From assembly GCF_932526225.1 (NCBI RefSeq), contig NC_064047.1:1689027-1753026 (forward strand): DNA of 64,000 bases. The letters are read 5' to 3'. The notes beneath the pieces are model-generated. The model saw only the letters and a program-made list of their open reading frames with translations, was not told the origin of the DNA and searched no databases. Each line of letters opens with the position of its first letter. The first letter of the stretch is position 1. Both the position numbers and the translations under genes were made by a program. The stretch is from Nematostella vectensis. Its lineage: Eukaryota. This document shows, piece after piece, positions 1,289 to 52,915 of this stretch.

Positions 1289-2485
1289 ATAGCAATGCAT
1301 GCATTCATTATATTTATTTCTTTATTTTTATCTCTACTTATTTATTTTATCTTATTTATATACCTTGACCGTACTTAAGACGAATGCAAAAAGTGCGTTA
1401 ATATTTCGCTAGCTCAGTACTCACACACTAGCCTTCTCCGCAGGCGTCTAAACCGCTTTTTTTTGCTAAAAAAAGATAAACAACTTTTCGCTAGCGGGAG
1501 TTCTGTGGCGAGACAAATTCTTTCGGGTTCGGTCCGCGTGCTCGCTGTTTTCTTGTGTTGTCTCGCAAGTAGAGATGCCTGCAGACTAAACTACTCACAC
1601 ACCACGATGCACAAAATACGAGTAGCAAAGATAAAATAACAATGAAAAAGTTTTTGTTTGTTTCTATATTTAAACGAGCATACTGTCACGCGGAAAATTA
1701 ACGCAAGGTGATGGGTTTCGCTATTTTATAACATTTTTATTTTAGACCATAGTTAGGGGTCACGGGGATTTGAACTCCCCCCAATTGTAGGCGTTTCCAC
1801 ATTGTTTTCAAGAGTTACTCGAGAGTCGTAAAATTGAGCGCCTATTACCGTTCCGTACGCATTAACTATCGGTAGAAAGCTTGATCTGGTTTTACGAGCA
1901 GGTAACTCTAGGTATCATCTAGGTCCAATGAAACTCTGGTATAGCCAGGTTCATTATTAAGTAAGCGAATGCAAAACTGATTGGAATGCTATCATGGCGT
2001 TGATGCCGACGTGTGAAGCCTGCCATGTCCACTAGCATAGCAAGCATGTAGTGTGTTACCTCCGTAGTCAAATAATTCATACCATCCCTATAGTTTTCCG
2101 TGCTATGTACTCTTATACTCGTATACACGCGTATACACTTCACAACATTTTGATCATGAGGTGGCGAATATCGTGGTGTATAAAAGTACATACCACGGAA
2201 AACTATGGAGAATTTGTAATCAATACTTAGGTCACGGAAGTCCAAGGGTAACTCTCTGCCCCCCCCCCCCCCCCCCCCCCAACCCCCCAACGGAACTCGC
2301 CTTTCGTACACCCAAAAACCTTATCTAAACCAAGCTCGCTTTGCGGGGGTGTTAGTGAAGGTTTCCCGAATGGACTTGCCGTCTTAGGAGCATATAAAAG
2401 GGATGCGGTAGATACCCCAAAATTGCTTGTAAACTTCTTATAGACCTTCGTCGTGTAACAACGTACAGAAGTAAAACCCCGTACA

Positions 2486-3260: not shown

Positions 3261-6200
3261 CACTGTGACGTCACAATTCGAGGGAGACAATTTGTCGAAC
3301 ACTGAAAAGATTCCAAATTTGGGGGGGGGGGGGGGGGGGGGGTAAAGGAGTCCCAAAAAGAGGGGGCCGAATCAAGATATCAAAAAGAGGGGAGATTTAT
3401 TGTTCTGTCGTGGATTTCCTTATATATTTCTTGTTATTTTTAAACCAAATACTGAAAATGGGGGTAGGGGGGCTCTGCCCGCCCTTAGATCCGCCCCTGA
3501 TGGGTATATGAATCATTCAATCTTGTTTTAAGAACTGTCGTTTTTCTAGTTCGCTTAGTCATTTCCTTATTAGGCATTACATACCATATATGGAAGTCCG
3601 CTGCAATCATTTTTTCTCATATCAAGAAAATTTAGCCAAAAATTGTCGTTTTTATAATTATAATATAATTATATATGATAAACTTGAACTTTAAAATTTT
3701 ATTAAAAAATAACTTTCCACATATCAAGAAAATTTAGCCAAAAATTGTCGTTTTCCCCAGACGCGGTAACTTCCATATAAGGAAACTAATATATTCCTTA
3801 TTTGGAAAACCTGCACGATTCTTGTCATTTTTAGGGCTGCCGTAACGCAGGTGCTTCGCAAACTTTGTGAATTGTATTCAGAAGGGAAAAACAGTGACTG
3901 TGACCATGTTTAGTCAATGGAGAAAGCCCCTGAAAAGAAACTAAAATTCCTCTGTACCAGACCCCTAAAGCGACAACGGTTTCTTCATATGCTCTTTTTT
4001 ATCGTTCTAGAACTTCGTTAGTCGATAATTTTCACGTAAACTTGCAGGAATTCGTGCCTTACTACGATTTTGATGGCAGCCATCTTAGAAAGCCTAGTCC
4101 CTAACGTTTTAGAATAGCACGCTCTCCCCAGGCTCTTTTCTCATCGTAAGCGAACATTGGTTCTTTAACGAGAGTGTCTGCAGGTGATTATTTATTCAGT
4201 ATCTTTTTCATATTCATATACAAGTATAACTCAGAATATAAAAATAAATATTGATTATTCCTGAATAAAAACGGAGACGAGCTAAGAAAATTAAAAAAAA
4301 AAAAAATTGTTTTTGCCAAACGCTGTCAAAATGTTTTATTCCTTATTTTTAAAAAATGAGCTTTCTAGCAGTACCGCAGTCCGCAGGTGCTTCGTTAACT
4401 TTATAACTTGTAATCAAAAGAGCAAAACAGTGACTGTGACCATCTTTAGTTAATGGAGAAAGTATCTGAAAAGAAACAAAAATTCCTCGGTACCAGACCT
4501 CCTAAACGACAACGTTTTCTTAGGGTGGGGTGTCGCGTTGATTGGAACTGGGCATTCCGTGCTGGTCGCTAACGATACGCAGGCCCGTACCCAGGGGGGG
4601 GGGGGGGGGGGGGGGTGCAGGAGGTGCGAAGGCACCCCCCAACAAGGGCCAAAAGTCCACTTTTTGTTCTCAATAGACGCGCTATTTGTAGACAAAGCTA
4701 AGAATCATAGGCTAGATCCCTCGTGCATGTAGCCAATTCCAAAGCTAAACGTCCCGTGGAGATACTGCAAAGGCATGCTTCAAAGGCAGCCTTGGTGGTT
4801 AAATTTTTATCAGAGAACTCCCTCCTCCCCCTTCCCCCCGGAAAAATTAGGTCCACTTTTTCGGATTTCGCCCCCCCCCCCCAAGAAAAATCCTGGGTAC
4901 GGGTCTGGATACGGTATATGCCCCTTTTAAACTTCCCCTATCTGAAATTGCCATTTTCCAGCATCTACCCAAATTATAACATTTTAACAGCGCTGAGCCT
5001 GCTTGCAGAAAACCCTCTTCGTCCGGTGATCGGGCGCCATTTTGTATTTGAAGCCGCGTAGTTCCTTGGAGGGAGCCAAAAACGGACGCCCAGCGCTTCT
5101 GGTATGAATGGTGTTCTTGAAATAGTTCATCTCCCGAGTTAAAAAAATGACCTTTTTACCACTTCCGGTATTCAATCTCGCTCCAGACCTCCTCGCGGAA
5201 ATCCCGCTGGTGAACACGTGACCACACATCAACATGGCTGCTTGTCGGCTCATTCGCGATGGGAGCTAGGTGCAGAGAAAATCTACTAGTTTCCTACAAA
5301 AATGACATTTAATTCACCTCCAATTTTACACACAGCAAGATGAATTCAGGATATACAATAGACGCATTTCCTGTGCATTTTCAATGCGTCATACGACCTC
5401 AGAGTAACCAAAGATTGTGTTAACTAGAAGAGGATAACATTTCATCTGATTTTAAACTCTATCGCCGATACATTTGGGTACTGCGTGTAGAAGTTTCACT
5501 TCATCTTCATAACTGCATAATTACAGAACATTGACAAGTATTTCATCACTGGTATGTTCCTAATTGTTCGTGTTTGGAGGTGTTAGGTGCGGACAAAATC
5601 TGCAAGTTTTATCTGGGGTTGAGCTCGGTTCGAAATTCATCTCCTACGCCTGATCTCTGCACCAAGCCAGACCCTTTCAAATTCCCTCTTCCCTTTTTTT
5701 AATCTCACAAATATTATTTTCAAATTTTTGGAAGAGGGGTAGATGAAAATTATTAGCTCCATGGTCTGGGTTTAAACTAATTCTTGCTTTCGTTTTATAA
5801 TTTTACACAATGCAAACTAGCTGATTTCACAAGTCACTCGATTCCATGCATAAGATTCTAGATTGTTTCGTAATTATTATTAAAATAAACTTATCTCTTG
5901 CATTTGATCAAACTAAACACGGCTGTCCGTTTGTTATTGTATTTTGATTATTTTTTTCTCACTGTTTATAATTCCGAAATGTGCATACTTTCCAAATGAA
6001 TCCATAGTGTAAAAAAATGCAGTCAGTCAATTCGAAATTAGTTTTTTTAACCGACTCCGTTTCCCTTCAAGGCAAGATTTGTAGGATTTCTTGTATTGTT
6101 TTGGTTTTATGTTTTGTTTTGAGTTGCTGCAAGAATTATTAGCATAAATAGTCATGCTTGACCATTAACTCGCTCTAGAGATCTATTTATCAATCAAAAC

Positions 6201-7493: not shown

Positions 7494-7587
7494 ATGTCAA
7501 GAAAGCATAGCACACTGCTGAAAGAAGAGGTGGATGATGATGAATCTAATGGTGATGACAAGAGCAAGAGAGAAAGCACACAAGAAG
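7494..7587 (+). CDS. REPS1: REPS1-like exon 1 (ATG 7494; MSRKHSTLLKEEVDDDESNGDDKSKRESTQE), donor g|gttaga, phase 1
   Basis: ATG in frame with downstream exons. Preceded by ttacag, so it could equally be an internal exon with upstream 5' exons unrecognised. Confidence 0.6.
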
Positions 7588-7881
7588 GTTAGACTTCACC
7601 AATTATTTTGTTAGTATTGTTTTAAAGATCTAAACAGCAGTTTAAATTATAATATGGAATAGTCAAAATCACAGATTTGTTGAACTTTTGGACAAGTTCA
7701 AGTATGGAGTATTTTCATCTTTTATATAAAGTTATACCCTGCCAAACCATTCTCTGTTGTTTTAATGCTACTAGAAAGTTTTACAGTTAGGCAAATGAAG
7801 TTTCCAAAAGCTAACAACACCAAGCCACCTTAAGCAGATAATGCCTGCCCTAAAATTAACCTCTTAAATATTTGATTGCAG

Positions 7882-8210
7882 GTGATAAAAGGAGAAAAGG
7901 AAAGAAAGGTGAACGCCTTGAAGGCTATTACAACAGTAGTATGAACAACTCTAAGGTTAAACCTGTCGTGGGTGCAGCTATCAACCCTTCAGCGGATGGC
8001 ATAACTTCACCTAACCACACCCAGCCCACCCAGGTCCTGCCCACTATCCAGCCCCCGCCCACCCACCCGTATCGGCAGCAAGGCCCTGCAGGGCCACCGG
8101 TGACATGTCAAGCCCAACAGGGGTCTACAGCGCAGCAGGTTACACCTCAAGGCCAGCAGGGTTACAGTGGCGTGGTCATGCCTGTAGCAATAAACCAGCC
8201 TATTCAACAG
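7882..8210 (+). CDS. REPS1: REPS1-like exon 2 (basic/Pro-Gln-rich)
   Basis: Acceptor ttgcag|gt, donor caacag|gtcagt at 8210/8211. Consistent with ORF track 7872..8294. The exon 3' end plus donor is tandemly repeated downstream. Confidence 0.8.
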
Positions 8211-8790
8211 GTCAGTATAAATAGAAAAGGGTTGCATTGGCGTGGTCATGCCTGTAGCAATAAACCAGCCTATTCAACAGGGCAGTATAAATAGAAAAGG
8301 GTTACAGTGGTGTGGTCATGCCTGTAGCAATAAACCAGCCTATTCAACAGGTCAGTATAAATAGAAAAGGGTAACAGTGGCGTGGTCATGCCTGTAGCAA
8401 TAAACCAGCCCATTCAACAGGGCAGTATAATGAGAAAAGGGTTGCATTGGCATGGTCATGCCTGTAGCAACAAACCAGCCTATTCAACAGGTCAGTATAA
8501 ATAGAAAAAGGTTGCATTGGCATGGTCATGCCTGTAGCAATAAACCAGTCTATTCAACAGGTCAGTATAAATAGAAAAGGGTTGCATTATCATGGTCATG
8601 CCTGTAGCAATAAACCAGCCTATTCAACAGGTCAGTATAAATAGAAAAGGGTTGCATTGGCATGGTCATGCCTGTAGCAATAAACCAGCCTATTCAACAG
8701 GTCAGTATAAATAGAAAAGGGTTGCATTGGCATGGTCATGCCTGTAGCAATAAACCAGCCTATTCAACAGGTCAGTATAATGAGAAAAGC
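8171..8790. repeat. 70-bp minisatellite, about 9 copies. Copy 1 is the last 40 nt of REPS1 exon 2 plus the 5' splice site, and each copy carries caacag|gtcagt.
   Basis: Unit cgtggtcatgcctgtagcaataaaccagcctattcaacaggtcagtataaatagaaaagggttgcattgg is repeated with few substitutions. Confidence 0.9.
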
Positions 8791-9273
8791 TGCTATCTAC
8801 ATGGACTATCTACATGACCTATTTCACACATTCGAAATTTTTCGAATAATATCAAGCAATCTCCGTCGTTGTCAAATAAATGGCTCCCAGCTGTTCAAAA
8901 GTCTTCGCTAGCAGTTATCACACATTCAGATATCTTCGAAGGATATCAAGCAATCAGCATTCCTTCCCAAAACTAATTACCCCATGTCTAATACAAGTCT
9001 TTGTTAAATACAGTAAATGGCTTCCCGCTGTTCAAACATCAGCTGTTCGCGAATTTTGCGAACATATGTACACATGTTTGAGAGCGGTACTGTACTTCCC
9101 ACAAAGTGCTGGGTTTGCAAGCAATTGGAAAAAGCTCTAACTCCAGTTTGCACAATTTTATGTATCTTCTTGATTGTTACTTATATTTCAACTTGGGTTG
9201 TTAAAGTTGGTTATAATTGAAACTTGGTCCTTGACCTCATGTTAAAAGAATGACTTCTTTGTTTGTAATACAG

Positions 9274-9519
9274 GTCTACCAGCCAAACCATCCTCAGCAC
9301 ATTCCGCCGCAAAACCCAGTGGCAACTCACTGGCAGCAACAGCAACCACTGCCTGTAAGGCTACCGCCCCCTCCTGGCCCCGCCCAACACCCAGTAGTGG
9401 CACCCCAACAGTATCAAGCCACCCCACAACACCCTCAAGCCCAGTATCAACCCTACCAGCCCCACCCACCACAGGGGTACTTTCCAGGCGTGCATTACAC
9501 TCATGGAGTCCCAGGCCAG
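9274..9519 (+). CDS. REPS1: REPS1-like exon 3 (Pro/Gln-rich)
   Basis: Acceptor aatacag|gtc, donor ggccag|gtacaa, phase 0-0. ORF track 9250..9588. Confidence 0.8.
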
Positions 9520-9974
9520 GTACAATGTAAAATTTTATTTTTCAGTAACTTCTTTTTTATTGTAAACAAAACCCCTAGTGACACTTAGGTTATTGTTTGC
9601 AACACAAATACATAAGTTACAAGAAAACTTTTAAATAACCATGCTATTTTAAAAACATGTTTTCAGTGCAAAATCTCAAATGCAATGCAATGACAAATGG
9701 TACAGTAGTAAGAGTACACTATCAAAAGATACCATGGGTCTATTAAACCATGAAATTAGTTCACTTATAAGGGTTGATCTTAGAACTTCCATTTTCTATT
9801 TGCCATTTGCACCGACAATTTTTATTAATTGAATGTGAAATATTATCAACAGCCCTGTGTGATGTATGTAAAAAACAACTCTCATGGTTTAATTGAAACA
9901 GTAACTAAGATGCCATAATTCAGATAGATAGTTAGCCAGGTATCAGATTCTAATCTTGGTGTATTTATTTTAAG

Positions 9975-10185
9975 GTCCCTGGTGCTATAGGTGCACCGTA
10001 CATACATCAGCCAAGACATCCCCAGCATGTCCTAGTGCGCAGCCAGTCACTCCCAGAAGAGCCTGTCCCCCAAGGGCGGGGCCCACCCCCTGCACCCCAG
10101 AGTCCCCCAGGGCGGGGCCCACCCCAGGACCAGCAGATGTGGGTAGCACATCAGCCGCCACCACAGCCACAAGACCAAGTTGAAG
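9975..10185 (+). CDS. REPS1: REPS1-like exon 4
   Basis: Acceptor ttttaag|gtc, donor gaag|gtaaac, ends phase 1. ORF track 10035..10271. Confidence 0.8.
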
Positions 10186-10494
10186 GTAAACAAGTCACAA
10201 CAGCATATCTGGATAAGACAAAATTCAATGCATGGTACTTATTTCATAAAAGGCCCGTAGCCAGCATTTGAGCGGGGTTCGTTTACCCATTTAGCGGACC
10301 ATTTTTTCTAGGTAGCGTGCCCTAGCTAGCAGTGGTACTCAGTTTTCCTTCATTATAGCGTACCTTCCAGTCTCCCCCTGGCTATGGGCCTGTATTATAG
10401 CCCTGATATTCAAAATGAAATAACAAGGTACATTGTAATAAATAACTTGGAATTAAAAGTGCTGTGTCATTATTAATTGATCTCTAAATGTCAG

Positions 10495-10738
10495 CAGGTA
10501 ACTGGGTTGGTGAAAGTAATGGTGCTGCGTCCCAGCAGACCTGGGTACCGGGTAGTACTGCCACCCAACACCCCATGGAGAGCTACTGGGCAGCATTTAG
10601 TGGCAGCCCCCCAACCCCTGAGAAACCCCAACAATGGGACGACTCATCAGACCACTCTGATCACAGCTCAAGTGATGAGGAACTGGACCGAAGCAGCTCA
10701 CCTGTGCTGTGCGGTGAAGAGGGGGAGGGGCTTTTAAG
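10495..10738 (+). CDS. REPS1: REPS1-like exon 5 (acidic Ser-rich). Alternative acceptor at 10497/10498 is possible.
   Basis: Acceptor tgtcag|cag with tandem AGs, donor tttaag|gtgagt. Phase 1 in, phase 2 out. ORF track 10488..10742. Confidence 0.75.
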
Positions 10739-11315
10739 GTGAGTAGAAAGGGTGAGGCTTGAGGTTTGATATCTGAGCATTCACCCCATATACCCGTAGA
10801 ATTTACAGCCCAAGTCCAAAACCTCAGAAATGCAAACTAAACATCACCAGACCCAGTTGGGGTGGAGCTTAACGTTTGATATCTGAGCATTAATTTAGAT
10901 GATCTTTGTTAAATGCTAAAAACTGTAAAGTTTTAATCATCCTTTTATTACATAAGTGTGTTTGCTTACCATACATACTCCACCCACTAATGAGATACGG
11001 TATACCTGTAAAAAATATTAGTATTCATCAGGATCACCTTAAATAATCTAAATAAACTTTTTTTTCTGGGTAAGTGCTAAACTCTCATTTCTGCTTTATC
11101 AACGTTTCTGGAAATAAACAAATGAAAAATGCATTCTGAGCTGCATCCATTGCTTTTTCCCCATGGTGTAATGTACAAGAACTATTTACTTTTTATACTA
11201 CTTTCCTTTTTCTGTTTGTTTAAAACCCAGTCCTTTAGAACCTTAAATTGTTCTTGATCATCAAGCCGGATTGTTGCTATAAATTAAATTGAATTTTGCT
11301 ATGTTTACATAATTT

Positions 11316-11655
11316 TTTACTAGTACCTGTCACAGAAATGTTAATTGTTATGCAAATCCCTTAGGGATTTAAACTGTAGATCTGTAAAAAGTCCTAAGTG
11401 TTACAACCAAAAAATGATAATAAAAACCTTCAAAGATGTCATGATAGAAACAGGAACAAACTCTAGGTAGGAGTTGATATGGTTTACTAGTACCTGTCAC
11501 AGAAATGTTAATTGTTATGCAAATCCCTTAGGGATTTAAACTGTAGATCTGTAAAAAGTCCCAAGTGTTACAACCAAAAAATGATAATAAAAACCTTCAA
11601 AGATGTCATGATAGAAACAGGAACAAACTCTAGGTAGGAGTTGATATGGGTATTT
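11316..11655. repeat. Tandem duplication of about 169 bp, 2 copies, in REPS1 intron 5
   Basis: tactagtacctgtcacagaaatgttaattgttatgcaaatccc...gagttgatatgg occurs twice in a row. Confidence 0.8.
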
Positions 11656-12169
11656 TTCCATTGCGAGTGCTTAACAGAAATTTATTATTATAGTTGATAA
11701 TTTTTGTGTTAACCTTGATGTCAGCTTAGATTTGGCCATTGAAAAGCTCCAAATTCTGTTCCATAAATCACCATGGTGGTATACTTTTACACAAGTAGTA
11801 TATGCAACTATACAATGATATGCATGGGTACATGAGAGTTATCAACTTTCTGGGTTTGTCTGTACTTGTGTTTTAGTCATATTGTGCTAGAATTGAAATA
11901 TTTAAGTTTATGTTATATGTTCACCATGTTTTTAAATGCAGTGGAACAGAAATGACAGTTCGGCTGTTACTATAATAATAAATTCTTCAAACAAATAACA
12001 AGGTATTATTATTTTAATAAATAGTGTAAGTATTGATAAATATAAGAGTTATTGTAGAATGTACATCTATTCTTATAATAAATGCAATTTACTGTAAATT
12101 GTGTATTTGAGCTATTTCCTTGTTTGGTGTTTGAGAACCAAGTTTAAAAAAATCTATTTATTTTTCTTA

Positions 12170-12700
12170 TTATATCTTATTATTACCTACGCTACTACGC
12201 TACTACGCTAGTCAATTTTTTTTTCATAATTTCATATAGATTACAATCAATTTACATGTATTTATATATATATATATATATTTATTTAGCTTTATCAGTA
12301 AGAATCTACAATTTTAAATTTTTAATAATCAGTATAATTTTTATAATTTTATCTTTTTTTTGTGTCCCCCAATTAGTAGGGGTTTTATCCCCGGCTAGAG
12401 GTTGTTTATGACACTTTAATAAAGTTTCTATCTATCTATCTATCTACCATTATCATTATTATACATATTATTATAAAAAATACCAGAAAGAAAGGTCACC
12501 ATCTTGTTTATTATTATTATACGTATTATTATTAAAAAAAAATATCAGAAAGAAAGATCACCATCTTGTTTTCCCACTTCCCTCCCCTCCACCCCAAATC
12601 GTAATTTTTGAAATAAGATAATATTTTTTGGCATAATATCAATCATAATCAATCAATATCAATCATAATATCACCCTTCAGCATGTTATGTATAAGTGTT
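12170..12700. repeat. AT-rich microsatellite cluster ((TACTACGC)n, (TA)n, (CTAT)n, ATT-rich runs)
   Basis: Short-period simple repeats are visible directly. Confidence 0.7.
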
Positions 12701-12743
12701 TGTGTTATATAAGTATAGATTATTGAATCATGATTATCCCTAG

Positions 12744-12892
12744 GGCACCGTCGCTGACCAGTTTTGCTGAAAGCACAAGCAGTGTGGAAGATGAGGGAGA
12801 AGAAGATGTGTGGGTGATCCAGCATGAGCAAAGAGATTACTACGCTACACAATTTAGAAAACTACAGCCTGGGGAAGATGGAGTCATCAAAG
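12744..12892 (+). CDS. REPS1: REPS1-like exon 6 (EH domain N-terminal part: DVWVIQHEQRDYYATQFRKLQPGEDGVIKG)
   Basis: Acceptor tccctag|g, donor aaag|gtgcca. Matches human REPS1 [30 protein letters not shown]. Confidence 0.85.
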
Positions 12893-12929
12893 GTGCCACA
12901 ATCAGGAATAAATGTACCCTGATCATAAC

Positions 12930-13700
12930 ACCACCGTTAGCAATTTATTTACCCCATCCTTGTCACCCACCAATCATAACATTATCATCACCAATTAATT
13001 CACCTCATCCTTGTCACCCACCAATCATAACATAATCATCACCAATAAATTCACCTCATCCTTGTCACCCACCAATCATAACATAATCATCACCAATAAA
13101 TTCACCTCATCCTTTTGCCCATCAATCATAGCATAATCATCACCAACTAATTTATCTCATCCTTGTCACCAACCAATCATAACATTATCATCACCAATTA
13201 ATTTATCTCATCCTTTTGCCCATCAATCATAACATAATCATCACCAATATATTTACCCCATCCTTGTCACCCACCAATCATAACATTATCATCACCAATT
13301 AATTTATCTCATCCTTTTGCCCATCAATCATAACATAATCATCACCAATATATTTACCCCATCCTTGTCACCAACCAATCATAACATTATCATCACCAAT
13401 TAATTTATCTCATCCTTTTGCCCATCAATCATAACATAATCATCACCAATATATTTACCCCATCCTTGTTGCCGATCAATCATAACACCATCATCAATTA
13501 TTTTACCCCATCCTTGTCACCCATCAATCATAACATAATCATCACCAATTAATTTACCCCACCCTTGTCCCGTAACAATCATAACACCATTACCAATTAA
13601 TTTACCCCATCCTTGTCCCTTAACAGTCATAACACCATTACCAATTAATTTACCCCATCCTTGTCACCCACCAATCATAACATCATCATCACCAGTTATT
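12930..13700. repeat. Minisatellite of about 56-60 bp, about 13 copies, in REPS1 intron 6 (catccttgtcacccaccaatcataacataatcatcaccaat...)
   Basis: Regular recurrence of ccatccttgtcaccc / ccatccttttgccc units. Confidence 0.85.
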
Positions 13701-13862
13701 TTACTCCATCCTTGTCATTCATTGTCTTCTGTAAGTACCCCTGTGTAAATGCAACTTCACCCATGTGTCTTGTTCCTATGGATTCAAGAGGAGCAAAATC
13801 ATGTATTGGAGCCCCAACTTTAGGCAATGACCACTTAGGTTGTTTGTCCTATTCATTTTCAG

Positions 13863-13926
13863 GTCCTAAAGCAAGAGATTTCTTCTTGAAATCTAACTTG
13901 CCGACCGAAACTTTATCCAAGATATG
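13863..13926 (+). CDS. REPS1: REPS1-like exon 7 (EH domain: PKARDFFLKSNLPTETLSKIW)
   Basis: Acceptor ttttcag|gt, donor atatg|gtatgt. Matches [21 protein letters not shown]. Confidence 0.85.
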
Positions 13927-14435
13927 GTATGTTATTACAAAACATGCTATGTGCTCCTTAAAGACTATCCTTCAGTCATTTCTCAGGGCCGTCATAGCAA
14001 GGGGTGGGGCATTGGGGACACATGCCCCCCCCCCTCCCCCAATGTTTTCAAAAAGTATAAGGAAATGACCAGTACTTTTACTCAAACAGTTTCCTATGAG
14101 GGAAACAAAAACAAAAACAAAAACAGTTTCTGATCACATTTTGTTTTATATTTTTAGCAATTTTATTAAGCTCTTGTAAAGTTTCATTCCAGCTTTGAAT
14201 TCCACTATGCCATGTGTAATCACTGAAGAAACTTGAATGTAATACAAATTCCAGCTTTCTGTTCTGATCATCATTCTCTATTCAATTCTCAATTCTTTTA
14301 AAGTACACCTTAAGTAAACAAGAAGCGAAAAAATCTCAAAATCTCTCTCATTGCAGCTAGCGTTTACCATTTCCTTGTTATTTTGTTTGACTCTGGGCTA
14401 CCTTGACCAATAATCTTTCCTTGTCTGTTCTCCAG

Positions 14436-14587
14436 GCACCTTTCAGATATCAATAAAGACAATGCACTTCACCTGGAGGAGTTTTGTATAGCAATGCATC
14501 TGGTAGTTGCTATAAGACATGGGCTGGACCTGCCCCCAACACTACCCCCAACGTTACTGAACTTTAGGGCCAGCGAGGAAGAGGAAG
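14436..14587 (+). CDS. REPS1: REPS1-like exon 8 (EH domain EF-hand: [38 protein letters not shown]...)
   Basis: Acceptor ttctccag|g, donor gaag|gtaagg. Matches [37 protein letters not shown]. Confidence 0.85.
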
Positions 14588-14812
14588 GTAAGGAGAATAT
14601 CAGCTCAACTGGTCTCCTACAGTATAATTATTCACATTACTCAACTTTAGGGCCAGCGAGGAAGAGGGAGGGAGAAAGAAAATATCAGCTCAACAGGTCT
14701 CCTACAGTATAATTATTCACATTACTCAACTTTAGGGCCAGTGAGGAAGAGGGAGGTAAAGAGAATATCAGCTCAACAGGTCTCCTACAGTATAATTATT
14801 CACAGATTACCC
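14553..14812. repeat. 84-bp tandem repeat, 3 copies, duplicating the REPS1 exon 8 3' end plus donor (gaggaag|gtaagg)
   Basis: ctttagggccagcgaggaagagg(a)aggtaa(g/a)gagaatatcagctcaac.ggtctcctacagtataattattcaca appears three times. Confidence 0.85.
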
Positions 14813-15225
14813 CAAAGTGTGTTATAGACAAAAATATGAAATACAATACACATAACCCAATGATACAGGGAAAAAAGCAAATATGTGCGAAGTCCTGCTT
14901 CACAGCTAGACATTGGAAATACATAGCTAAAATGTATGCACATATCAATATTTAATCCATGAGATGCTTGCTTTCACCACTTAAAATATCAGAACTGTTG
15001 ATGAATGTATAATATGCTTAATATGGTTTTATTTTGATTTTAAACATAGGTGTATCAATGATTATTTTCTGTTTGTAAAAGTGCACTGTTGTTATTTTGC
15101 CGCCAAAAGATGAAGTGTGTACATGTTCGCCACCCAAAAAGTCATTGATTTCTCAGTGCAAGTCCCCTATTTCACTACTTCCTATACCCAGTCTATTGAT
15201 TGGTGCTGTTCTTTGTTAATGTCAG

Positions 15226-15314
15226 ATCCATTCAATGTTTCCATGACAGCAGCCCCAACGTCACCAAGGCAAAAAGAGAACAGTGTTGGGGAACACATAG
15301 AGGCTTCAATTGAG
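15226..15314 (+). CDS. REPS1: REPS1-like exon 9 (DPFNVSMTAAPTSPRQKENSVGEHIEASIE)
   Basis: Acceptor atgtcag|at, donor attgag|gtatgg. The phase 1-in and phase 0-out requirement is satisfied and links exon 8 to exon 10. Confidence 0.7.
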
Positions 15315-15877
15315 GTATGGGATGCCTGTGGTGCACAACTTTTCAAATCAGTCATGCCTTCTTGCATAGTTTGATTCTTCTTGGACCGATTTTGTTTTAG
15401 AATGAATTAGATTTAACTGTTTAAGTGATTTTAGTTTCTGGAATAGAATAGGGTGTCATAACATGAGAACTGGAGAAGAGTTACCACAGAAAGCTTACAG
15501 CTTAAACCATGGTTGTATACCTCAAGTGAACAAGCTCAGATTCAGGACATTGGCAATCAAATGTCCTTCAATAACTATAAAAAGTGTATTCTAATTTAAT
15601 TGTAGAATTGTGTCTTGGCTCTTAGTGATGGAAATTTTAATCATACTCCTCTGTCAAATCAATATCAGAAAAGTTACAAAATAACACTTCACATCCTATT
15701 ACTTTTTCAAGACTCTGCATTAAATAACAAAAACCTGATAGTTATAGATCTTAGCTATGTGCTTCCCTTTCTTTGTGAAGAGTTTGCAACCCATCCACGT
15801 TATTCCCCCTTTGTTAAGGTCACATATTTGTACTAAATATGTAATAAATAGTTTAACCAATTTGCATCATTTTGCAG

Positions 15878-16652
15878 GAACAGTCTCACTCCCCTCGTTC
15901 AGCCTCACTCAAAAGGGAACACAACCGACGGCAAGATTTATCTCGGCCGCGCTCCCTCTCAGACCCAAACTACACAGAGGAGCCTCATGACCATTCAAGG
16001 AAAATCTCCAGCCCCGTCCCACCAACCTCTGGTACAACTCAACCGGAGGGTGCTTCAGCAATAGTCCCACCTCTTCCGCTAAGCCCCGGTCCACACATAG
16101 GCATAGAGAGACCAAGAGCATCAGCAAAGATCTCCCTCCTGGATAGTGCACCAGGCCAGCTGCTGCCACCACCGTCTGGGAAGTTTGCGCGTGAGGCCAT
16201 CAAAGAGTCAGACTCAGACTCTGATACCTCTGACAGCTCACCCCCAACATCACCCACACAACAGAGCCCTCTTGAGACCACGCCTGTTTTGCCGCTACCA
16301 GAGAAAGTCACCCCAGAGCCTGGTACAACAACACCACCCTCGCCGCCTCCTGACTCCCCGAAGAGTGTGGCACCTCCTGCGCTAAGGTCCACTGCAGAGA
16401 AGGTGGTCATGAGACAACAACGCAAGAGTGGAGAGAGACCACGATCAGCTGGTGATGTCAATCATATTGTCCCAATGGATGATAGCACCCCTGGGTCGAC
16501 CACGCCTAGTGATGGTAGCCAGGGGTCCCACGGCCAGAAGGACCCACCTCCACCACCTCCTCCCAGGAACAAGAGGGGTCACTCTAGGTCCTCATCACTT
16601 GACCTCAATAAGCTATTTGCTGCTAAAGCCAAGGAGGCGAAGGAGAACAGAG
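15878..16652 (+). CDS. REPS1: REPS1-like exon 10 (large Ser/Pro-rich exon, contains [25 protein letters not shown])
   Basis: Acceptor ttttgcag|gaa, donor acagag|gtttgc, phase 0 in and phase 1 out. ORF track 15872..16786. Matches human [24 protein letters not shown]. Confidence 0.85.
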
Positions 16653-16845
16653 GTTTGCTCAATAAACCATTACGTATTTCGTTTATGTTTTTTTTTGCCC
16701 CATGTCACACCGTTGTGCAACTAGATCTTTCTTTGATTTACTATGTGATTCGGCGGTCAAGCTTAAATGAACTTTATTTACTGTAGACTGACCGATTTAA
16801 TGTAACACAATGTAACACCAAGTCTTCTTGGTTATATTTCCGCAG

Positions 16846-16886
16846 CTGCAAGCACATCCTCTCCAACGTCCAGTCACTCGAGCCAG
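16846..16886 (+). CDS. REPS1: REPS1-like exon 11 (micro-exon AASTSSPTSSHSSQ)
   Basis: Acceptor ttccgcag|ct, donor gccag|gtaatg. Only this phase fits between exons 10 and 12. Confidence 0.6.
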
Positions 16887-17298
16887 GTAATGCAAGACTT
16901 TCGATAATGGTTTCAATCACCATCAAATGGCAATGTATTTGAAATTTGTCCAAACAACAGAGGTACTTAGGCTCTACAAACCTTAGGCCTAGTTTAGAAG
17001 CTGTTCTTTTCATATGCCTTTCCAGATGTACAGTATGTACGTGCTTTGGACTTTGTTTATTTGCATATATTTGCATTTGAAACGGCATCCAAACTATACC
17101 TTAGAGGAATTCTTTGCTAGCTCATGTACAGACATGCACGCCATAAACACTGAAAATATCAAGTAAGTGTGTAGCCTTCAAGCCCCCTGTACAGTTATTA
17201 AAAAGATGGGGCCCAATTCAAATGGTACGTAGATGAGGGGTTGTTACAATGTCTACTGCATTGATATGATAGGCTCGTCTCATATCATTTGCTTACAG

Positions 17299-17529
17299 AA
17301 CAGTGAGACAGTACTTGCTGAAAGACCCGACACCTCACAGAAACATGAACCCAAAGGGGGGGCATCCGAGGAGACCCCACGCTCACCAGTACAGGCATCA
17401 GAAGAGCAGAATTTTGCCGATTTTAGCCGATTTGATAGTTTTGTTAACGCTCAGTCCAGCGATGGCACGTCTTCTGGTCAGAGCATGGTGAGATCTCACC
17501 GGCGGTCACAGTCACTTGATCAGAATCTG
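17299..17529 (+). CDS. REPS1: REPS1-like exon 12 (contains EQNFADFSRFDSF motif)
   Basis: Acceptor cttacag|aac, donor aatctg|gtaggt, phase 0-0. ORF track 17233..17571. Matches human EQPNFADFSQFEVF. Confidence 0.8.
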
Positions 17530-17860
17530 GTAGGTGTGGCCCCTTTATCTAGACTGACTCTATACAGCTAGGGAGCTGCAATGGGGGGAATGCGGATAGG
17601 AATTGAATGAGATAGGTGTGGAATTATTAAAATATGTGTAACGACCTGTGGTTTTACGTTTTGGACTATTGACTAGGTCACAACAGGAACATAAGCTGGG
17701 GCTTTCACTTTGATGGACTAATCTATTATGATTTGAACTAATATATTATTCGACCCTCCCCCTAAAGAGGTGGGTCTTGGCCATTCTGAGCCCGGTCCAC
17801 TGGATTTTGTAATTATTAACAACATGAAAAAAATATATACTAACATGTTGTTATTTCTAG

Positions 17861-17900
17861 GATTTCATACCCAAGCAACCAAGGAAAAACACTTTCGAAG
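17861..17900 (+). CDS. REPS1: REPS1-like exon 13 (DFIPKQPRKNTFE)
   Basis: Acceptor tttctag|gat, donor gaag|gtatgt, ends phase 1. Confidence 0.6.
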
Positions 17901-18017
17901 GTATGTATTTGCCATGCATGCATGTTTAGATATGTATGTTCTTAATTCTAATAACTACTGTTCTTTCCCTTTACTAAACATGGCTTGATCGTCACTTTTT
18001 GCAATATGTTTTTGCAG

Positions 18018-18073
18018 GGAGCACTTCCCCTCGCGGAAACCAAGAAGCTTTACCTCGCCCTGTGCCCAGAGTG
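18018..18073 (+). CDS. REPS1: REPS1-like exon 14
   Basis: Acceptor ttttgcag|gg, donor gagtg|gtaggt. Phase 1 in, phase 0 out. Confidence 0.6.
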
Positions 18074-18538
18074 GTAGGTAGTCTAGTGCAGTCTCATGAA
18101 CACCACTGTGTTCAGGGGCGTAGCCAGGGGGCCCAGCAGCCAAAAATACAGTAAATGTATGAGGCATAATCTGTAATGCAGGAAAAAATGACTTGAAAGG
18201 ACCTTCCAGAATCCAAAAGTCCAATCATGTGACCATTTTATGCTCCCGCTCAGTGCAAAGTCACACAAAGCATCCATTTCCATCTTCTAATTCAAGCGAG
18301 TAACCAATTAAAAATCGTTAATAACTTCTAAGACTTCATTCGTAGATTGTTATTTTGAAGTTTCCTTGTGAATTAACCGTTGTATTTTTAATTATAAACA
18401 ATAGCAAAGGAGTGGTTGATCGATGTTTTTTAATACGTTATCTTGGCATAATCTTTGGAGCTTGTGTCATACAAACATTTCAACTGACCATAATTAGCAA
18501 GAAGGGGTGACTAAGACAATGGCCTAACCTCATGAAAA

Positions 18539-18838
18539 CACAGGTAGCCCAGGCTCACGGCGAGTGTAGGTTTATTACAGAGTTTGTATGAGCAAAAAAT
18601 TCGTGTAATTTGGCGATTGTCGGAGTTTGCAACCTTGTCTATTTTATATACAGAAGGCGACGGGAAAAAATTTCAGTGGCTAAAACAGCTTAAAATGGCA
18701 AATAATGGCGGGATTGAGCAGCAGCAACGTTCAAACTACTGTTTTATTTTCAATTCATAATATTTATTTCAACGAATTTTTTGCTCAAACAAACTCTGTA
18801 ATAAACCTACACTCCCCGTGATCCTGGACTACCTGTGA
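18539..18838. mobile_element. MITE-like element with about 55-bp terminal inverted repeats (cacaggtagcccaggctcacggcgagtgtaggtttattacagagtttgtatgagc) in REPS1 intron 14. A second copy lies at 39168-39383.
   Basis: Inverted ends at 18539-18600 and 18770-18838. The related copy is in F-box gene intron 1. Confidence 0.6.
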
Positions 18839-18876
18839 TGAAAACACTCTATTACTTTGATATGGTATTCTTACAG

Positions 18877-18992: not shown

Positions 18993-19081
18993 GTATGTAG
19001 AATTTCCTTTGAAAGTCCCATGCAAAGCAGAAATTAGTTAACCCTTGATCTGTTAGTAGAAAAAGGGTTTCCCATCCCTTT

Positions 19082-19410: not shown

Positions 19411-19556
19411 CCACATAATCACAACCATTGATCTGTTGAATGAAGGACGTATACGTATTAGGTTTGGTTCGCCCAATTGTGCCAAAAGTGCATCGATCAA
19501 CGTGAAAGAAATACTCAAATTATTTTATCTAATTATCCTTTAGGCCTCTAACGAAG

Positions 19557-19650
19557 GAGAGCAAGCTCCAAACGTCGATTCGTGACCTAAAGGAGAAGAA
19601 CCTGGCTCTGTCACGGCTAAACAGCGAGCTGCAGCAAGAGGTTAAACAAG
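19557..19650 (+). CDS. REPS1: REPS1-like exon 16 (coiled coil [32 protein letters not shown]). Acceptor ambiguous (19556/19557 or 19559/19560).
   Basis: Donor aaacaa|gtgagt at 19650/19651. Matches human REPS1 C-terminus [21 protein letters not shown]. The first AG, at 19542-43, would give an in-frame stop. Confidence 0.65.
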
Positions 19651-20155
19651 TGAGTCACGCAAGAGATGTCACGCAGTACTCACTTACCGTCACGCTTAAA
19701 TATCGAGCTACATCGAGCTCAAACAAGTCACGAAATGAGTCACGCATTACACACTTACCGTCACGCTTAAATATCGAGCTACATCGAGCTCAAACAAGTC
19801 ACGAAATGAGTCACGCATTACACACTTACCGTCACGCTTAAATATCGAGCTACATCGAGCTCAAACAAGCCACGAAATGAGTCACGCATTACATTCAAAC
19901 AAGTAACGAAATGTGTCATGCATTACAAACTTACCGTCACGCTCGAACACGGTCTCCATCGAGCTCAAACAAGTCACGATATGCGTCATGCATTACACAC
20001 TTACCGTCACGCTTAAATATCGATCTACATCGAGGTCAAACAAGTCACGAAATGAGTCACGCATTATACACACTTACCGTCACGCTTAAATATCGAGCTC
20101 CAACGAGCTCAAACAAGTCACGAAATGAGTCACGCATTACACACTTTCCGTTGTA
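19651..20155. repeat. Minisatellite of about 71 bp, about 7 copies, beginning at the REPS1 exon 16 donor. Units retain an aaacaa|gtcacg pseudo-donor.
   Basis: Unit cttaccgtcacgcttaaatatcgagctacatcgagctcaaacaagtcacgaaatgagtcacgcattacaca. The first unit is continuous with the exon end aaacaa|gtgagtcacgca. Confidence 0.85.
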
Positions 20156-43878: not shown

Positions 43879-45564
43879 GTAGGATGGAAAAAAAGGAGGT
43901 TGTATTTTGAGTGAATCGATGAGTTCAGTTTCCAACATGTTCCGTTCATTGAAAACACTGAACAACACTCTATATTTCAAACCCTAAGAATGCCATGTGT
44001 TTGCGGAAAACTATCCAGTATTTCACCCACATTTTAACTTCTCTTAGCCATTATATCGACAAAGTGAATTTTTTGGACGCATTGAATTTATCATAGTTCG
44101 TTATAATCTCATTTTAAAATGTCCTGGCCTTATTTAATCCAGAATCATATTTTTTAATTATAAAAGTGGACCTCGAATACAATTTTTAGAAATATCCCTC
44201 CCGCTCTCACATCTTCCAAATTCTTTCTTTATATTGAAGATATATAATTGATTACCCATTCGAGTAGAATATCGTTTTTTGATGGAAAGCATGCGCGAGT
44301 TCTAAATAAATCATCATGTTCGGTTACAGTATGTAATGGAACTTTGAATGGATGTAAAGGCAGCGCGGTCTCGGAAGCCACGCGTGCGCTATTTCTGAGT
44401 GCTATTGTGGCTTTTAGAGAAGTGAAATCACGTTTAGAATGAGGTCAATTGACATTTCCGCAGGCCTGTCACTTGTACAGAGGTTTTGCATTTCCCATCA
44501 TTTCAAAAAAATGTAATGGTAAAAGTAAAAGGCAAAAGGGGGAAAATATGTTTGAGACAGGTTTCGTGTCGCTATTTTTCGTTATGCGTTTTTCGCATAT
44601 GTTATTAAAAAAAAAATAAAAAGTTTGGCTATCAAACAAATCAATCAATATTCTCCTTGTCCTTATATCAATGCAATATGCCGCATCTCCTCATAAAACG
44701 CTAACTTGTTTATTTTCCTTTTTAAAGAATTTCTTGTCGACCACTTGTACATGTATGTCATTGTTTATATTTGAAAATATAACGATTTACTCGCAAAAGT
44801 ACTTACAATTCCACAATTGATGAAGCCTGATAGTAGGTCCTTTCGCAATCAAGAGGGCCATCAGATTAAGGTTGAACATTCGTCAAACACAACAATCGGA
44901 CTTCTTGAAACGAACATTTTCCAGTTTTCGCAACGTAATTTGACTGGGTCTCGCAGTAATAACGGAGAGAGCGTTACAAAACAAGGCATATTTTAATTAA
45001 TTAGTGAGTTTTAATGGCATTTTGTGCTTCTATTATCTCCTTAGAATTTAGCCTGACAAGCCTGTACCAGTTGCCCTCGGGCAAGCGAGTGGTCGTTCAC
45101 AGTAAACGCAAATTCCTAGGTCGAATGTCATTTTTTCTGGGGTGACCAAGCTTTGAGGGTATTTTGAGAGGTCACGCACCTTTATGCTTGCTATGAGAAA
45201 ACTCTCAGAATGCCTACCATATTTCCATGAGGGGCAGGGCACGTGCACCAGACAGCCCTCCCTACAAAAAAACTAAAGTGGAAGGCTAAAATACATGTGT
45301 ATGATATAGCCCATCATTTTGATATAATGAGCCAATCAGAGCGCGCGAGAATCTGTATTTAAGCTCGATATTAATTTTTACCTCTATTTATGCGCGTATG
45401 TACCAGGCGCTCCCCCCGCCCCCCGACATCTTTGTGGCCAAAAAGTGGGTCATTTCTTATTATTGAAATTTTAAATACTATGATTTTTCCGTATAATACC
45501 TATAACTGCGAACCTTTGTAATGGGCGAGAACAATTTATCACTGAAAAATACCTGACTTATTTT

Positions 45565-46533
45565 CATCTCAGATCTAGCAAAGCTCTTATCCAAGTAAGG
45601 ATGATGGGAATATGTGATAAAATGAATAAATTCTCATCTCAGATCTAGCAAAGCTCTTATCCAAGGAGGATGGAATAAGTGATAAAATGAATAAATTCTC
45701 ATCTCAAATCTAGCAAAGCTCTTATCCAAGGAGGATGGAATAAGTGATGATAAAATGAATACATTCTCATCTCAAATCTAGCAAAGCTCTTATCCAAGGA
45801 GGATGGGAATAAGTGATAAAATGAATAAATTCTCATCTCAAATCTAGCAAAGCTCTTATCCAAGGAGGATGGGAATAAGTGATGATAAAATGAATAAATT
45901 CTCATCTCAAATCTAGCAAAGCTCTTATCCAAGGAGGATGGAATAAGTGATGATAAAATGAATACATTCTCATCTCAAATCTAGCAAAGCTCTTATCCAA
46001 GTAAGGATGATGGGAATAAGTGATAAAATGAATAAATTCTCATCTCAAATCTAGCAAAGCTCTTATCCAAGGAGGATGGGAATAAGTGATGATAAAATGA
46101 ATAAATTCTTATCTCAAATGTAGCAAAGCTCTTATCCAAGGAGGATGGGAATAAGTGATGATAAAATGAATAAATTCTCATCTCAAATCTAGCAAAGCTC
46201 TTATCCAAGTAAGGATGATGGGAATAAGTGATAAAATGAATAAATTCTCATCTCAGATCTAGCAAAGCTCTTATCCAAGGAGGATGGGAATAAGTGATGA
46301 TAAAATGAATAAATTCTTATCTCAAATGTAGCAAAGCTCTTATCCAAGGAGGATGGGAATAAGTGATGATAAAATGAATAAATTCTCATCTCAAATCTAG
46401 CAAAGCTCTTATCCAAGTAAGGATGATGGGAATAAGTGATAAAATGAATAAATTCTCATCTCAGATCTAGCAAAGCTCTTATCCAAGTAAGGATGATGGG
46501 GATAAGTTATAAATGAATGAATTCTCATTTCAG
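45565..46533. repeat. Minisatellite of about 70-75 bp, about 13 copies, immediately upstream of transgelin exon 2. It is derived from the intron 3' end plus exon 2 start, and units carry ttctcatctcag| pseudo-acceptors and ccaa|gtaagg pseudo-donors.
   Basis: Unit attctcatctca(g/a)atctagcaaagctcttatccaag(taag)gatgatgggaataagtgat(gat)aaaatgaataa. The last degenerate unit ends in the real acceptor ctcatttcag|ATCGATTCAAAG. Confidence 0.85.
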
Positions 46534-46673
46534 ATCGATTCAAAGTATGACCCCACGAAAGAAGAAGAGGCGCGTAAGTGGATCGACACGGTCCTGGGGG
46601 AGTCGATATTTGGCGAGAATGGCGGTGTAGACACGGTGCATCAGACGCTCAAAGACGGCCAGGTCCTGTGCAG
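46534..46673 (+). CDS. Transgelin-like exon 2 (CH domain start: IDSKYDPTKEEEARKWIDTVLGE...HQTLKDGQVLCR)
   Basis: Acceptor ctcatttcag|atc, donor tgcag|gtgggc, phase 0 in and phase 2 out. ORF track 46513..46731. Matches KYDEELEERLVEWI...LKNGVIL. Confidence 0.85.
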
Positions 46674-48660: not shown

Positions 48661-48684
48661 AGGTTCTGTTTGTTGTTCTTCTAG

Positions 48685-51219: not shown

Positions 51220-51240
51220 GACCCCTGACGATATTTGCAT

Positions 51241-52900: not shown

Positions 52901-52915
52901 TATCCTCTGCTCCAG

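What the first reader, a model, noticed from the sequence alone, without database searches (positions are those of the whole stretch)
8171..8790. Recurrent class of minisatellites made by tandem duplication of exon-intron junctions (4 instances in this window)
At least four intronic minisatellites are direct continuations of an exon boundary, and their units retain splice-site motifs. (1) At 8171-8790, copy 1 of 9 is the last 40 nt of REPS1 exon 2 plus its donor, and every copy keeps caacag|gtcagt. (2) At 14553-14812, the REPS1 exon 8 end plus donor appears 3 times. (3) At 19651-20155, the array starts at the REPS1 exon 16 donor and its units keep aaacaa|gt. (4) At 45565-46533, upstream of transgelin exon 2, units contain ttctcatctcag| pseudo-acceptors and some contain |gtaagg pseudo-donors 22 nt later, giving 22-nt pseudo-exons. 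Splice junctions look like preferred seeds for tandem duplication here. The arrays are a source of cryptic splice sites and likely VNTR polymorphism inside genes.
Basis: seen in the sequence. Interest (0 to 1): 0.75.

Follow-up and report, generated by a model that had tools for sequence, protein, structure and literature searches.

The report
Intron minisatellites that copy splice junctions
In two sea-anemone (Nematostella vectensis) genes, four intronic tandem-repeat arrays began as duplications spanning an exon-intron junction and so repeat splice-site look-alikes, but this layout is already known in human genes and four such arrays here is about what chance predicts.

Summary
The window is Nematostella vectensis DNA. 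All four arrays are real:
- A1: 8158-8789, 70 nt x9.
- A2: 14554-14804, 83 nt x3.
- A3: 19610-20151, about 72 nt x7.5.
- A4: 45560-46536, 69 nt x14.

Each array is continuous with a splice junction. A1-A3 run from the donors of REPS1 exons ending at 8210, 14587 and 19649. A4 ends at the acceptor of transgelin exon 2 (46534). An ortholog or a paralog confirms three of these junctions. The exon-2 donor (A1) rests only on reading frame, phase and splice consensus.

- Only 7 of 9 A1 copies keep GT.
- A2 copy 2 has lost its donor.
- A3 contains 40 nt of exon, not 8, and its pseudo-donors are weak.
- Only 4 of 14 A4 pseudo-acceptors keep AG.

The claim that junctions are preferred seeds is not supported. 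The introns were only 244-503 nt before expansion (A4's was 2640 nt). A 50-80 nt duplication therefore straddles a junction 24-42% of the time. About 2.0-2.3 of 14 arrays are expected to do so, and 4 were observed (P about 0.11-0.17).

The anatomy is already described for human F7, IFI6, CBS, LMNB2 and PDGFA. These are new members of a known kind.

The parts
7882..8210 (+). REPS1 exon 2 (coding, starts in phase 1 and ends in phase 0). Its last 53 nt form the exonic part of A1 copy 1.
   Evidence: Reading frame, acceptor ttgcag|gt and donor CAG|GTCAGT matching 8 of 9 consensus positions. An in-frame stop lies at 8292-8294 if the donor is read through. The 3' end could not be confirmed by homology. 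An alternative in-phase donor at 8139 (CAG|GTTACA, 6 of 9) is not excluded.
8158..8789 (+). A1: 70-nt minisatellite, 9.0 copies. Copy 1 is 53 nt of exon 2 plus 17 nt of intron 2. GT is kept at 8211 (authentic), 8351, 8491, 8561, 8631, 8701 and 8771. It is GG at 8281 and 8421.
   Evidence: TRF score 1096, 94% matches. Copies shown in register. Donor table. The unit is not found elsewhere in the window.
8211..9273 (+). REPS1 intron 2 (1063 nt, about 503 nt before A1 expanded). The same 7 nt, ACAG|GTC, occur at both its ends. Three related anthozoan orthologs have no intron at this place.
   Evidence: for the boundaries. Searches show one continuous ORF in L001, L002 and L003 covering window exon 2, exon 3 and the start of exon 4.
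14436..14587 (+). REPS1 exon 8 (end of the EH domain). Its last 34 nt are the exonic part of A2 copy 1.
   Evidence: tblastn matches to Exaiptasia and other REPS1 proteins. The donor gaag|gtaagg has the same position and phase as gaag|gtaatg in ortholog L001. Coordinates.
14554..14804 (+). A2: 83-nt unit, 3.0 copies. Copy 1 is 34 nt of exon 8 plus 49 nt of intron 8. Donor states: AAG|GTAAGG (authentic, 14588), GAG|GGAGAA (dead, 14671), GAG|GTAAAG (14756).
   Evidence: TRF score 435, 92% matches.. An in-frame stop precedes the copy-3 pseudo-donor.
19544..19649 (+). Its last 40 nt are homologous to the A3 unit.
   Evidence: tblastn to Exaiptasia REPS1. The donor aaacaa|gtgagt and the next acceptor are conserved in position in L001. 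Coordinates.
19610..20151 (+). A3: about 7.5 copies of a 71-77-nt unit. The diverged first copy is about 40 nt of exon plus about 37 nt of intron. The pseudo-donors lack the GAGT of the authentic site (CAA|GTCACG). Each unit carries three GTCACG motifs.
   Evidence: TRF 19668-20151. Leftward extension to 19610: local score 29 against shuffle mean 12.0 +/- 2.2, with 0 of 2000 shuffles as high; flank test z = 8.8. Donor table. Motif counts.
45560..46536 (+). A4: 69-nt unit, 14 copies, with a 208-nt higher-order period. It ends at the acceptor of transgelin exon 2. The last, authentic copy supplies the polypyrimidine tract, the AG at 46532-46533 and at least 3 nt of exon.
   Evidence: TRF scores 1460-1698. 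Copy table. Similarity past the first 3 exon nt is weak: 5 of 9 positions with one gap, judged by eye.
46534..46673 (+). Transgelin/calponin-like gene, exon 2 (CH domain). Its acceptor is the terminal copy of A4.
   Evidence: The same intron position is seen in the inverted paralog at about 62290 on the minus strand. Coordinates.

Best explanation
These are ordinary local minisatellites in a repeat-rich, short-intron stretch of the Nematostella vectensis genome.

In each case a 69-83-nt tandem duplication happened to include a splice junction. The cause was probably replication slippage, repair of a staggered break, or unequal exchange (inferred). Such a duplication leaves one intact exon-plus-junction copy next to the exon, so the coding sequence is unchanged and the extra copies become intron. 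Unequal exchange then expanded the arrays to 3-14 copies.

By analogy with the human F7 IVS7 minisatellite, the splicing machinery should use the exon-proximal site and leave the downstream pseudo-donors silent. Any transcript that used a pseudo-site would meet a premature stop and probably be degraded. Many pseudo-sites have since been inactivated: GT to GG in A1 and A2, loss of GAGT in A3, and AG to AA in A4.

Shown here: the anatomy, the local origin of the units, the exon content of the units, the stop codons, and a number of cases consistent with chance.

Inferred: the duplication mechanism and which splice site is actually used.
For: - The arrays and their register with the junctions are shown.
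- The units carry exon-derived sequence: 53, 34 and 40 nt for A1-A3.
- The junctions of A2, A3 and A4 are confirmed by conserved intron position and phase in ortholog L001 and in the transgelin paralog.
- The units are not dispersed repeats.
- The orthologous REPS1 loci of four related anthozoans lack these arrays. L001 intron 14 is about 251 nt. The window's is 700 nt, or about 264 nt without the expansion.
- The window is 10.7% tandem arrays. The introns were short before expansion, so chance predicts 2.0-2.3 junction-straddling arrays of 14 against 4 observed, P = 0.11-0.17.
- Premature stops follow any pseudo-site use.
- There is precedent with experimental proof that only the most upstream donor is used: F7. 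The same anatomy is reported in IFI6, CBS, LMNB2 and PDGFA (PMC1557585).
Against: - Four observed against about 2 expected is a mild excess. With only 14 arrays, a real two-fold enrichment cannot be excluded.
- The null model assumes that junction-spanning duplications are as viable as purely intronic ones. If they are partly harmful, the expected number is lower and the excess is more notable.
- The exon-2 donor (A1) has no transcript or homology support.
- Six pseudo-donors in A1 are identical to the authentic site over 70 nt. Their silence is assumed from a mammalian model and has not been shown in a cnidarian.
Confidence: 0.75

Rival explanations
1. Splice junctions are true hot spots for tandem duplication in this genome. 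The cause could be transcription- or splicing-coupled DNA damage at junctions, or a sequence feature of junctions. On this view the association is mechanistic.
For: Four of 14 intronic arrays, and 3 of 7 in REPS1, include a junction. That is nominally about 1.8-fold above expectation. Three further arrays lie within 16-56 nt of a donor or about 20 nt of an acceptor: 46690, 12941, 19048 and 52527.
Against: The excess is not significant (P = 0.11-0.17 overall, 0.28 for REPS1 alone). None of the intronic arrays in the REPS1 orthologs L002-L004 straddles a junction. The four units share no sequence or boundary feature beyond the splice motifs themselves.
Confidence: 0.1
2. The arrays are functional splicing devices. 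Reiterated donors or acceptors would be used as regulated alternative sites, producing unproductive transcripts that tune REPS1 or transgelin expression.
For: A1 keeps six pseudo-donors identical to the authentic site. In human IFI6 and CBS the two pseudo-sites nearest the authentic one are used constitutively (PMC1557585).
Against: Every pseudo-site use leads to a premature stop. Many pseudo-sites are mutated or weak: A2 copy 2, all of A3, and 10 of 14 in A4. The arrays are absent from orthologs, so no function is conserved.
Confidence: 0.05
3. A1 is not junction-derived. The true donor of REPS1 exon 2 would be the in-phase CAG|GTTACA at 8139, and the whole array would then be intronic sequence that merely keeps an open reading frame.
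For: The 8139 site is in phase 0 and compatible with the acceptor at 9273/9274. The Q/P-rich region cannot be aligned reliably to orthologs: alignment scores equal those of shuffled sequence. No N. vectensis REPS1 protein or transcript was retrievable.
Against: The 8211 donor matches 8 of 9 consensus positions against 6 of 9 for 8139. The frame stays open and Q/P-rich through 8210. Even if this rival is right, only one of the four cases changes.
Confidence: 0.15
4. Intron 2 of REPS1 was itself created by tandem duplication of coding sequence containing an AG|GT proto-splice site (the Rogers model), and A1 is the remnant of that event.
For: Intron 2, and also intron 3, is absent from three related anthozoan orthologs. 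The same 7 nt, ACAG|GTC, flank the intron at donor and acceptor. Intron gain by tandem duplication is documented elsewhere (PMC2891723; PMC3265369).
Against: Beyond those 7 nt, which largely are the splice consensus, the 3' end of the intron does not resemble the end of exon 2, and the start of the intron does not resemble the start of exon 3 (inspection). No outgroup decides between gain and loss. The remaining 484 nt of the intron are unrelated to the exon.
Confidence: 0.05

Closest known systems
Human F7 IVS7 37-bp VNTR (Borensztajn et al. 2006, PLoS Genet, PMC1557585)
   Same: It is an intronic minisatellite whose first monomer spans the exon-intron boundary. The authentic donor is therefore followed by several pseudo-donors of identical sequence. 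A1 is the closest match, with six identical pseudo-donors.
   Different: The F7 unit is 37 bp and holds only 4 nt of exon. The units here are 70-83 nt with 34-53 nt of exon. For F7, exclusive use of the most upstream site and copy-number polymorphism were shown experimentally. Neither could be tested here. The organism is a cnidarian, not a mammal.
Human IFI6 (6-16), CBS, LMNB2 and PDGFA boundary-spanning minisatellites (listed in PMC1557585; Turri et al. 1995 for 6-16)
   Same: All have repeat units that reiterate the donor site into the intron. The unit sizes of LMNB2 (100 bp) and PDGFA (81 bp) are comparable to those here.
   Different: [quoted passage not shown] Usage here is unknown. None of those cases is an acceptor-side array like A4.
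Intron gain by tandem duplication of coding sequence with a proto-splice site (Rogers model; Lehmann et al. 2010, PMC2891723; Hellsten et al. 2011, PMC3265369)
   Same: The mutational event is the same: a tandem duplication that duplicates splice signals while leaving the mRNA unchanged.
   Different: In that model a new intron is created from duplicated exon. Here an existing intron is lengthened. For A2, A3 and A4 the junction is conserved in an ortholog or paralog.

Membership tests
Exon-intron-boundary-spanning intronic minisatellite (F7 / IFI6 / CBS / LMNB2 / PDGFA type) | Head-to-tail array of a 10-100-nt unit lying within an intron | tested here: met
   TRF gives 70 nt x9.0, 83 nt x3.0, 71-73 nt x about 7, and 69 nt x13.6-14, with scores 431-1698.
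Exon-intron-boundary-spanning intronic minisatellite (F7 / IFI6 / CBS / LMNB2 / PDGFA type) | The terminal monomer spans an authentic exon-intron boundary | tested here: met
   A2 and A3: the donor position and phase are conserved in ortholog L001, and the exon content of the unit is 34 and 40 nt. A4: the acceptor position is conserved in the paralog, but only 3-12 nt of exon are included. A1: 53 nt of exon, but the boundary is inferred from reading frame, phase and consensus only.
Exon-intron-boundary-spanning intronic minisatellite (F7 / IFI6 / CBS / LMNB2 / PDGFA type) | The splice-site sequence is reiterated as pseudo-sites inside the intron | tested here: met
   A1: 6 of 8 pseudo-donors are identical to the authentic site. 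A2: 1 of 2 keeps GT. A3: 6 of 7 keep GT but are weak (4-6 of 9 consensus positions). A4: 4 of 14 keep AG.
Exon-intron-boundary-spanning intronic minisatellite (F7 / IFI6 / CBS / LMNB2 / PDGFA type) | Pseudo-sites are silent, or only those nearest the authentic site are used | not testable with these tools
   No N. vectensis REPS1 or transgelin transcript could be retrieved. It is shown only that any use of a pseudo-site gives a premature stop.
Exon-intron-boundary-spanning intronic minisatellite (F7 / IFI6 / CBS / LMNB2 / PDGFA type) | Copy-number polymorphism (VNTR) | not testable with these tools
   Only one haplotype is available. The within-array subfamilies and the 208-nt higher-order period of A4 show repeated rounds of exchange but not present-day polymorphism.
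Intron created by tandem duplication (Rogers model) | The intron's 5' end is homologous to the downstream exon and its 3' end to the upstream exon, beyond the AG|GT core | tested here: not met
   For intron 2 only ACAG|GTC is shared at the two ends. The rest of the intron has no match to the flanking exons.
Transposon-borne or dispersed satellite | Copies of the unit at other loci | tested here: not met
   A blastn-short search with each unit found no hit in the window outside its own array. Only this 64-kb window could be searched.

The most novel reading that the evidence does not exclude
Junction-spanning duplications really are over-represented in Nematostella. On this reading, roughly a quarter to a third of intronic minisatellites are seeded at splice junctions, because of a transcription- or splicing-linked or motif-driven break-and-repair process. 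This could connect with the GTCACG-rich minisatellite family seen in five arrays of this window and with the full-length PRDM9 genes reported in cnidarians. Such a process would be a systematic route of intron lengthening and of cryptic splice-site birth.
Probability: 0.08. Interest if true: 0.6.

Novelty: new member of a known kind. Interest (0 to 1): 0.25.

Why it matters
As it stands, the finding adds four cnidarian examples, including a rare acceptor-side one, to a gene architecture known from a handful of human genes.

Its practical value is threefold:
- It is a caveat for gene prediction in repeat-rich Nematostella introns, because reiterated donors and acceptors can mislead gene models.
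- A1 is a natural test of whether first-site 5' splice-site choice, shown for human F7, also operates in a cnidarian. It offers six pseudo-donors identical to the authentic site over 70 nt.
- The arrays are candidate copy-number markers.

If a genome-wide test showed real enrichment at junctions, it would point to a new link between splice junctions and tandem duplication. The present data do not indicate that.

Tried and rejected
1. Confirming the exon-2 donor by homology. The Q/P-rich region aligns to the L001-L003 ORFs no better than shuffled sequence does. The global alignment was uninformative.
2. Finding the N. vectensis REPS1 protein or a transcript. Two protein searches returned only relatives of 45% identity or less over more than half the query, rising to 71% over the conserved EH-domain portion alone. 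The best transcript-like hit, P0151, is truncated at the 5' end and starts inside exon 4.
3. Fetching annotated loci. The Exaiptasia REPS1 protein (P0001) and the N. vectensis F-box protein (P0121) are not on record in the contig index. No further N. vectensis loci could be sampled for a wider test.
4. A fifth instance. The array at 52527 extends to 52893 (z = 13.9) but stops about 20 nt before the acceptor AG at 52914-52915. The arrays at 12941, 19048 and 46690 start 48, 56 and 16 nt after donors and do not reach them.
5. The Rogers model for intron 2. There is no homology beyond ACAG|GTC.
6. A dispersed or transposon origin of the units. No copies lie outside the arrays.
7. Selection against pseudo-sites. 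Inactivating changes are present in all four arrays, but there are too few independent events to separate selection from drift and amplification. No formal test was run.

Full report
**Organism and genes**

The 405-aa F-box/WD40 ORF at 39456-40673 is 100% identical to a Nematostella vectensis protein. The window is therefore starlet sea anemone DNA.

A REPS1 ortholog lies on the + strand from 7494 to 20417. Its best named hit is Exaiptasia REPS1, with exon mapping. A transgelin/calponin-like gene lies on the + strand from 42934 to 53113, and an inverted paralog lies at about 59.9-62.3 kb.

I built the REPS1 exon model from ORFs, phases and splice sites. I checked it against an orthologous locus, L001, from an ENA assembly of a related anthozoan, against three further loci, L002-L004, and against a transcript-derived ortholog, P0151. 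My count gives 15 coding exons. The numbering is uncertain, but the junctions are not affected.

**The observation**

TRF confirms all four arrays.

- A1 (8158-8789) is 9.0 copies of 70 nt. Copy 1 is the last 53 nt of exon 2 plus 17 nt of intron. Copies 1, 3 and 5-9 keep CAG|GTCAGT. Copies 2 and 4 read CAG|GGCAGT.
- A2 (14554-14804) is 3 copies of 83 nt. Copy 1 is 34 nt of exon 8 plus 49 nt of intron. Copy 2 has lost GT, and copy 3 reads GAG|GTAAAG.
- A3 was called by TRF from 19668. A local alignment shows that the unit is homologous to the last 40 nt of the exon, from 19610. The score is 29 against 12.0 +/- 2.2 for shuffles, with 0 of 2000 shuffles as high; the flank test gave z = 8.8. The founding unit was therefore about 40 nt of exon plus about 37 nt of intron. 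The repeated copies lack the GAGT of the authentic GTGAGT and read GTCACG, a weak donor.
- A4 (45560-46536) is 14 copies of 69 nt, with a 208-nt higher-order period. It ends at the acceptor of transgelin exon 2. CAG survives in 4 of the 14 pseudo-copies, and GTAAGG occurs 22 nt downstream in 5. Both are present in copies 1 and 14.

**How secure are the junctions**

- The donors of exon 8 (gaag|gtaagg) and exon 14 (aaacaa|gtgagt), and the acceptor of exon 15, have the same position and phase in L001.
- The transgelin exon-2 acceptor has the same position in the inverted paralog.
- The exon-2 donor at 8211 rests on an open Q/P-rich frame, phase-0 compatibility with the acceptor at 9273/9274, an in-frame stop at 8292 if read through, and a match to 8 of 9 consensus positions.
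- That region is too low in complexity to align to orthologs, and no Nematostella REPS1 protein or transcript was retrievable.
- An in-phase but weaker site at 8139 (6 of 9) remains possible. I give it about 15%.

**Origin of the arrays**

The units occur nowhere else in the window, so they are local duplications and not transposon cargo.

The orthologous REPS1 loci lack these arrays. Tandem arrays cover 0.7-7.3% of L001-L004, against 10.7% of the window. None of the arrays in those loci straddles a REPS1 junction.

Removing the expansions brings the window's introns back to the ortholog's size. Intron 14 is 700 nt, or about 264 nt without A3, against about 251 nt in L001.

The subfamilies within A1 and the higher-order period in A4 indicate several rounds of unequal exchange.

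**Is the association with junctions more than chance?**

For each of the 14 arrays that lie in an intron with known boundaries, I calculated the chance that a founding unit of length L overlaps either junction. The unit is placed at random so as to overlap an intron of pre-expansion length I0. That chance is about 2L/(I0+L).

The pre-expansion introns were short: 244-503 nt for five of the seven REPS1 arrays. The individual chances are therefore 0.24-0.42 for those arrays. The expected total is 2.0-2.3, and P(>=4) = 0.11-0.17. For REPS1 alone the expectation is 1.9 against 3 observed, P = 0.28.

A simpler hand calculation agrees. Founding units cover about 7% of pre-expansion REPS1 intron sequence, and there are 28 junctions, so about 2 junctions should be covered.

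The hot-spot reading is therefore not supported. A two-fold enrichment cannot be excluded with this sample.

**Consequences for splicing**

Use of any A1 or A2 pseudo-donor, or read-through, meets an in-frame stop. Use of an A4 pseudo-acceptor puts "atc tag" in frame. Such transcripts would be unproductive.

For the human F7 IVS7 minisatellite, which has the same anatomy, 50 constructs showed that only the most upstream donor is used, through a 5'-to-3' scanning-type process. [quoted passage not shown]

I infer the same for A1, where six pseudo-donors are identical to the authentic site over the whole 70-nt unit. This has not been tested in a cnidarian.

**Comparison with what is known**

PMC1557585 states that "several genes" contain minisatellites whose first monomer spans an exon-intron boundary. 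It lists IFI6/6-16 (25 pseudo-sites), CBS (15-20 repeats), LMNB2 (100 bp x10-15), PDGFA (81 bp x16-18) and F7 (37 bp x5-9).

A1-A3 meet the structural criteria of this class. A4 is the mirror-image, acceptor-side version.

The same mutational event, when it falls within coding sequence, is the tandem-duplication route to intron gain (PMC2891723; PMC3265369). For intron 2 that model fails the homology test beyond the 7 nt ACAG|GTC.

**Verdict**

They are new members of a known kind in a new phylum. Finding four in this window is explained by very high minisatellite density combined with short introns. Interest is low to moderate (0.25).

Noticed in passing
window 8211-9273 and 9520-9974; L001 4620-5174, L002 15-722, L003 2021-2698: REPS1 introns 2 and 3 of the window have no counterpart in three related anthozoan orthologs. 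There, one continuous ORF covers window exon 2, exon 3 and the start of exon 4. Conversely, L001 splits the window's large exon 10 with an intron. Whether this is gain or loss is undecided because no outgroup was available.
   Followed up: partly
window 8207-8213 and 9270-9276: The same 7 nt, ACAG|GTC, sit at the donor and at the acceptor of REPS1 intron 2. This could be a target-site or proto-splice-site duplication, or simply the splice consensus.
   Followed up: partly
window 19610-20151, 46690-46745, 46842-46950, 51226-51401, 52527-52893: Five of 22 tandem arrays contain the hexamer GTCACG or its complement, often several times per unit and sometimes as GTCACGTGAC. By a rough estimate, about 0.5 arrays would do so by chance. 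Outside the arrays the motif is not enriched: 25 occurrences against 19 expected. This may be a family of minisatellites sharing a motif. Its meaning is unknown.
   Followed up: partly
window 49169-49384, 51085-51219, 52916-53113: The last coding exon of the transgelin-like gene is present in three diverged tandem versions, similar at protein level only. The middle version is truncated and is followed a few bases later by the 23-nt array at 51226-51401. These may be alternative 3' exons, possibly with one decayed copy.
   Followed up: partly
window 59870-62290, minus strand: An inverted transgelin paralog has the same exon structure as the + strand gene.
   Followed up: no
window 2259-2280, 3321-3342, 4594-4615, 21349-21372, 23056-23071, 25936-25954, 27173-27189, 52407-52423, 53271-53287: Nine homopolymer G or C tracts of 16-24 nt occur in 64 kb. 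Similar poly-G ORF artefacts are seen in L001. They may be tails of a dispersed element.
   Followed up: no
window 24858-25562 and 30211-30650: Two long arrays of 15-nt units are present: TGGGGGGGATGTCAT x41, and CACATTGATGAGTGT x30 at 98% identity. The first lies in an intron of a minus-strand monocarboxylate-transporter-like gene.
   Followed up: no
window 46690-46745, 12941-13717, 19048-19414, 52527-52893: Four further arrays lie close to junctions without including them: 16, 48 and 56 nt after donors, and about 20 nt before an acceptor. In this small sample, array positions within introns lean toward the 5' end. This was not tested formally.
   Followed up: partly
protein database: No N. 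vectensis REPS1 protein was returned by two searches, although the neighbouring F-box/WD protein of the same species is present at 100% identity. The gene may be missing or mis-modelled in the source annotation.
   Followed up: no
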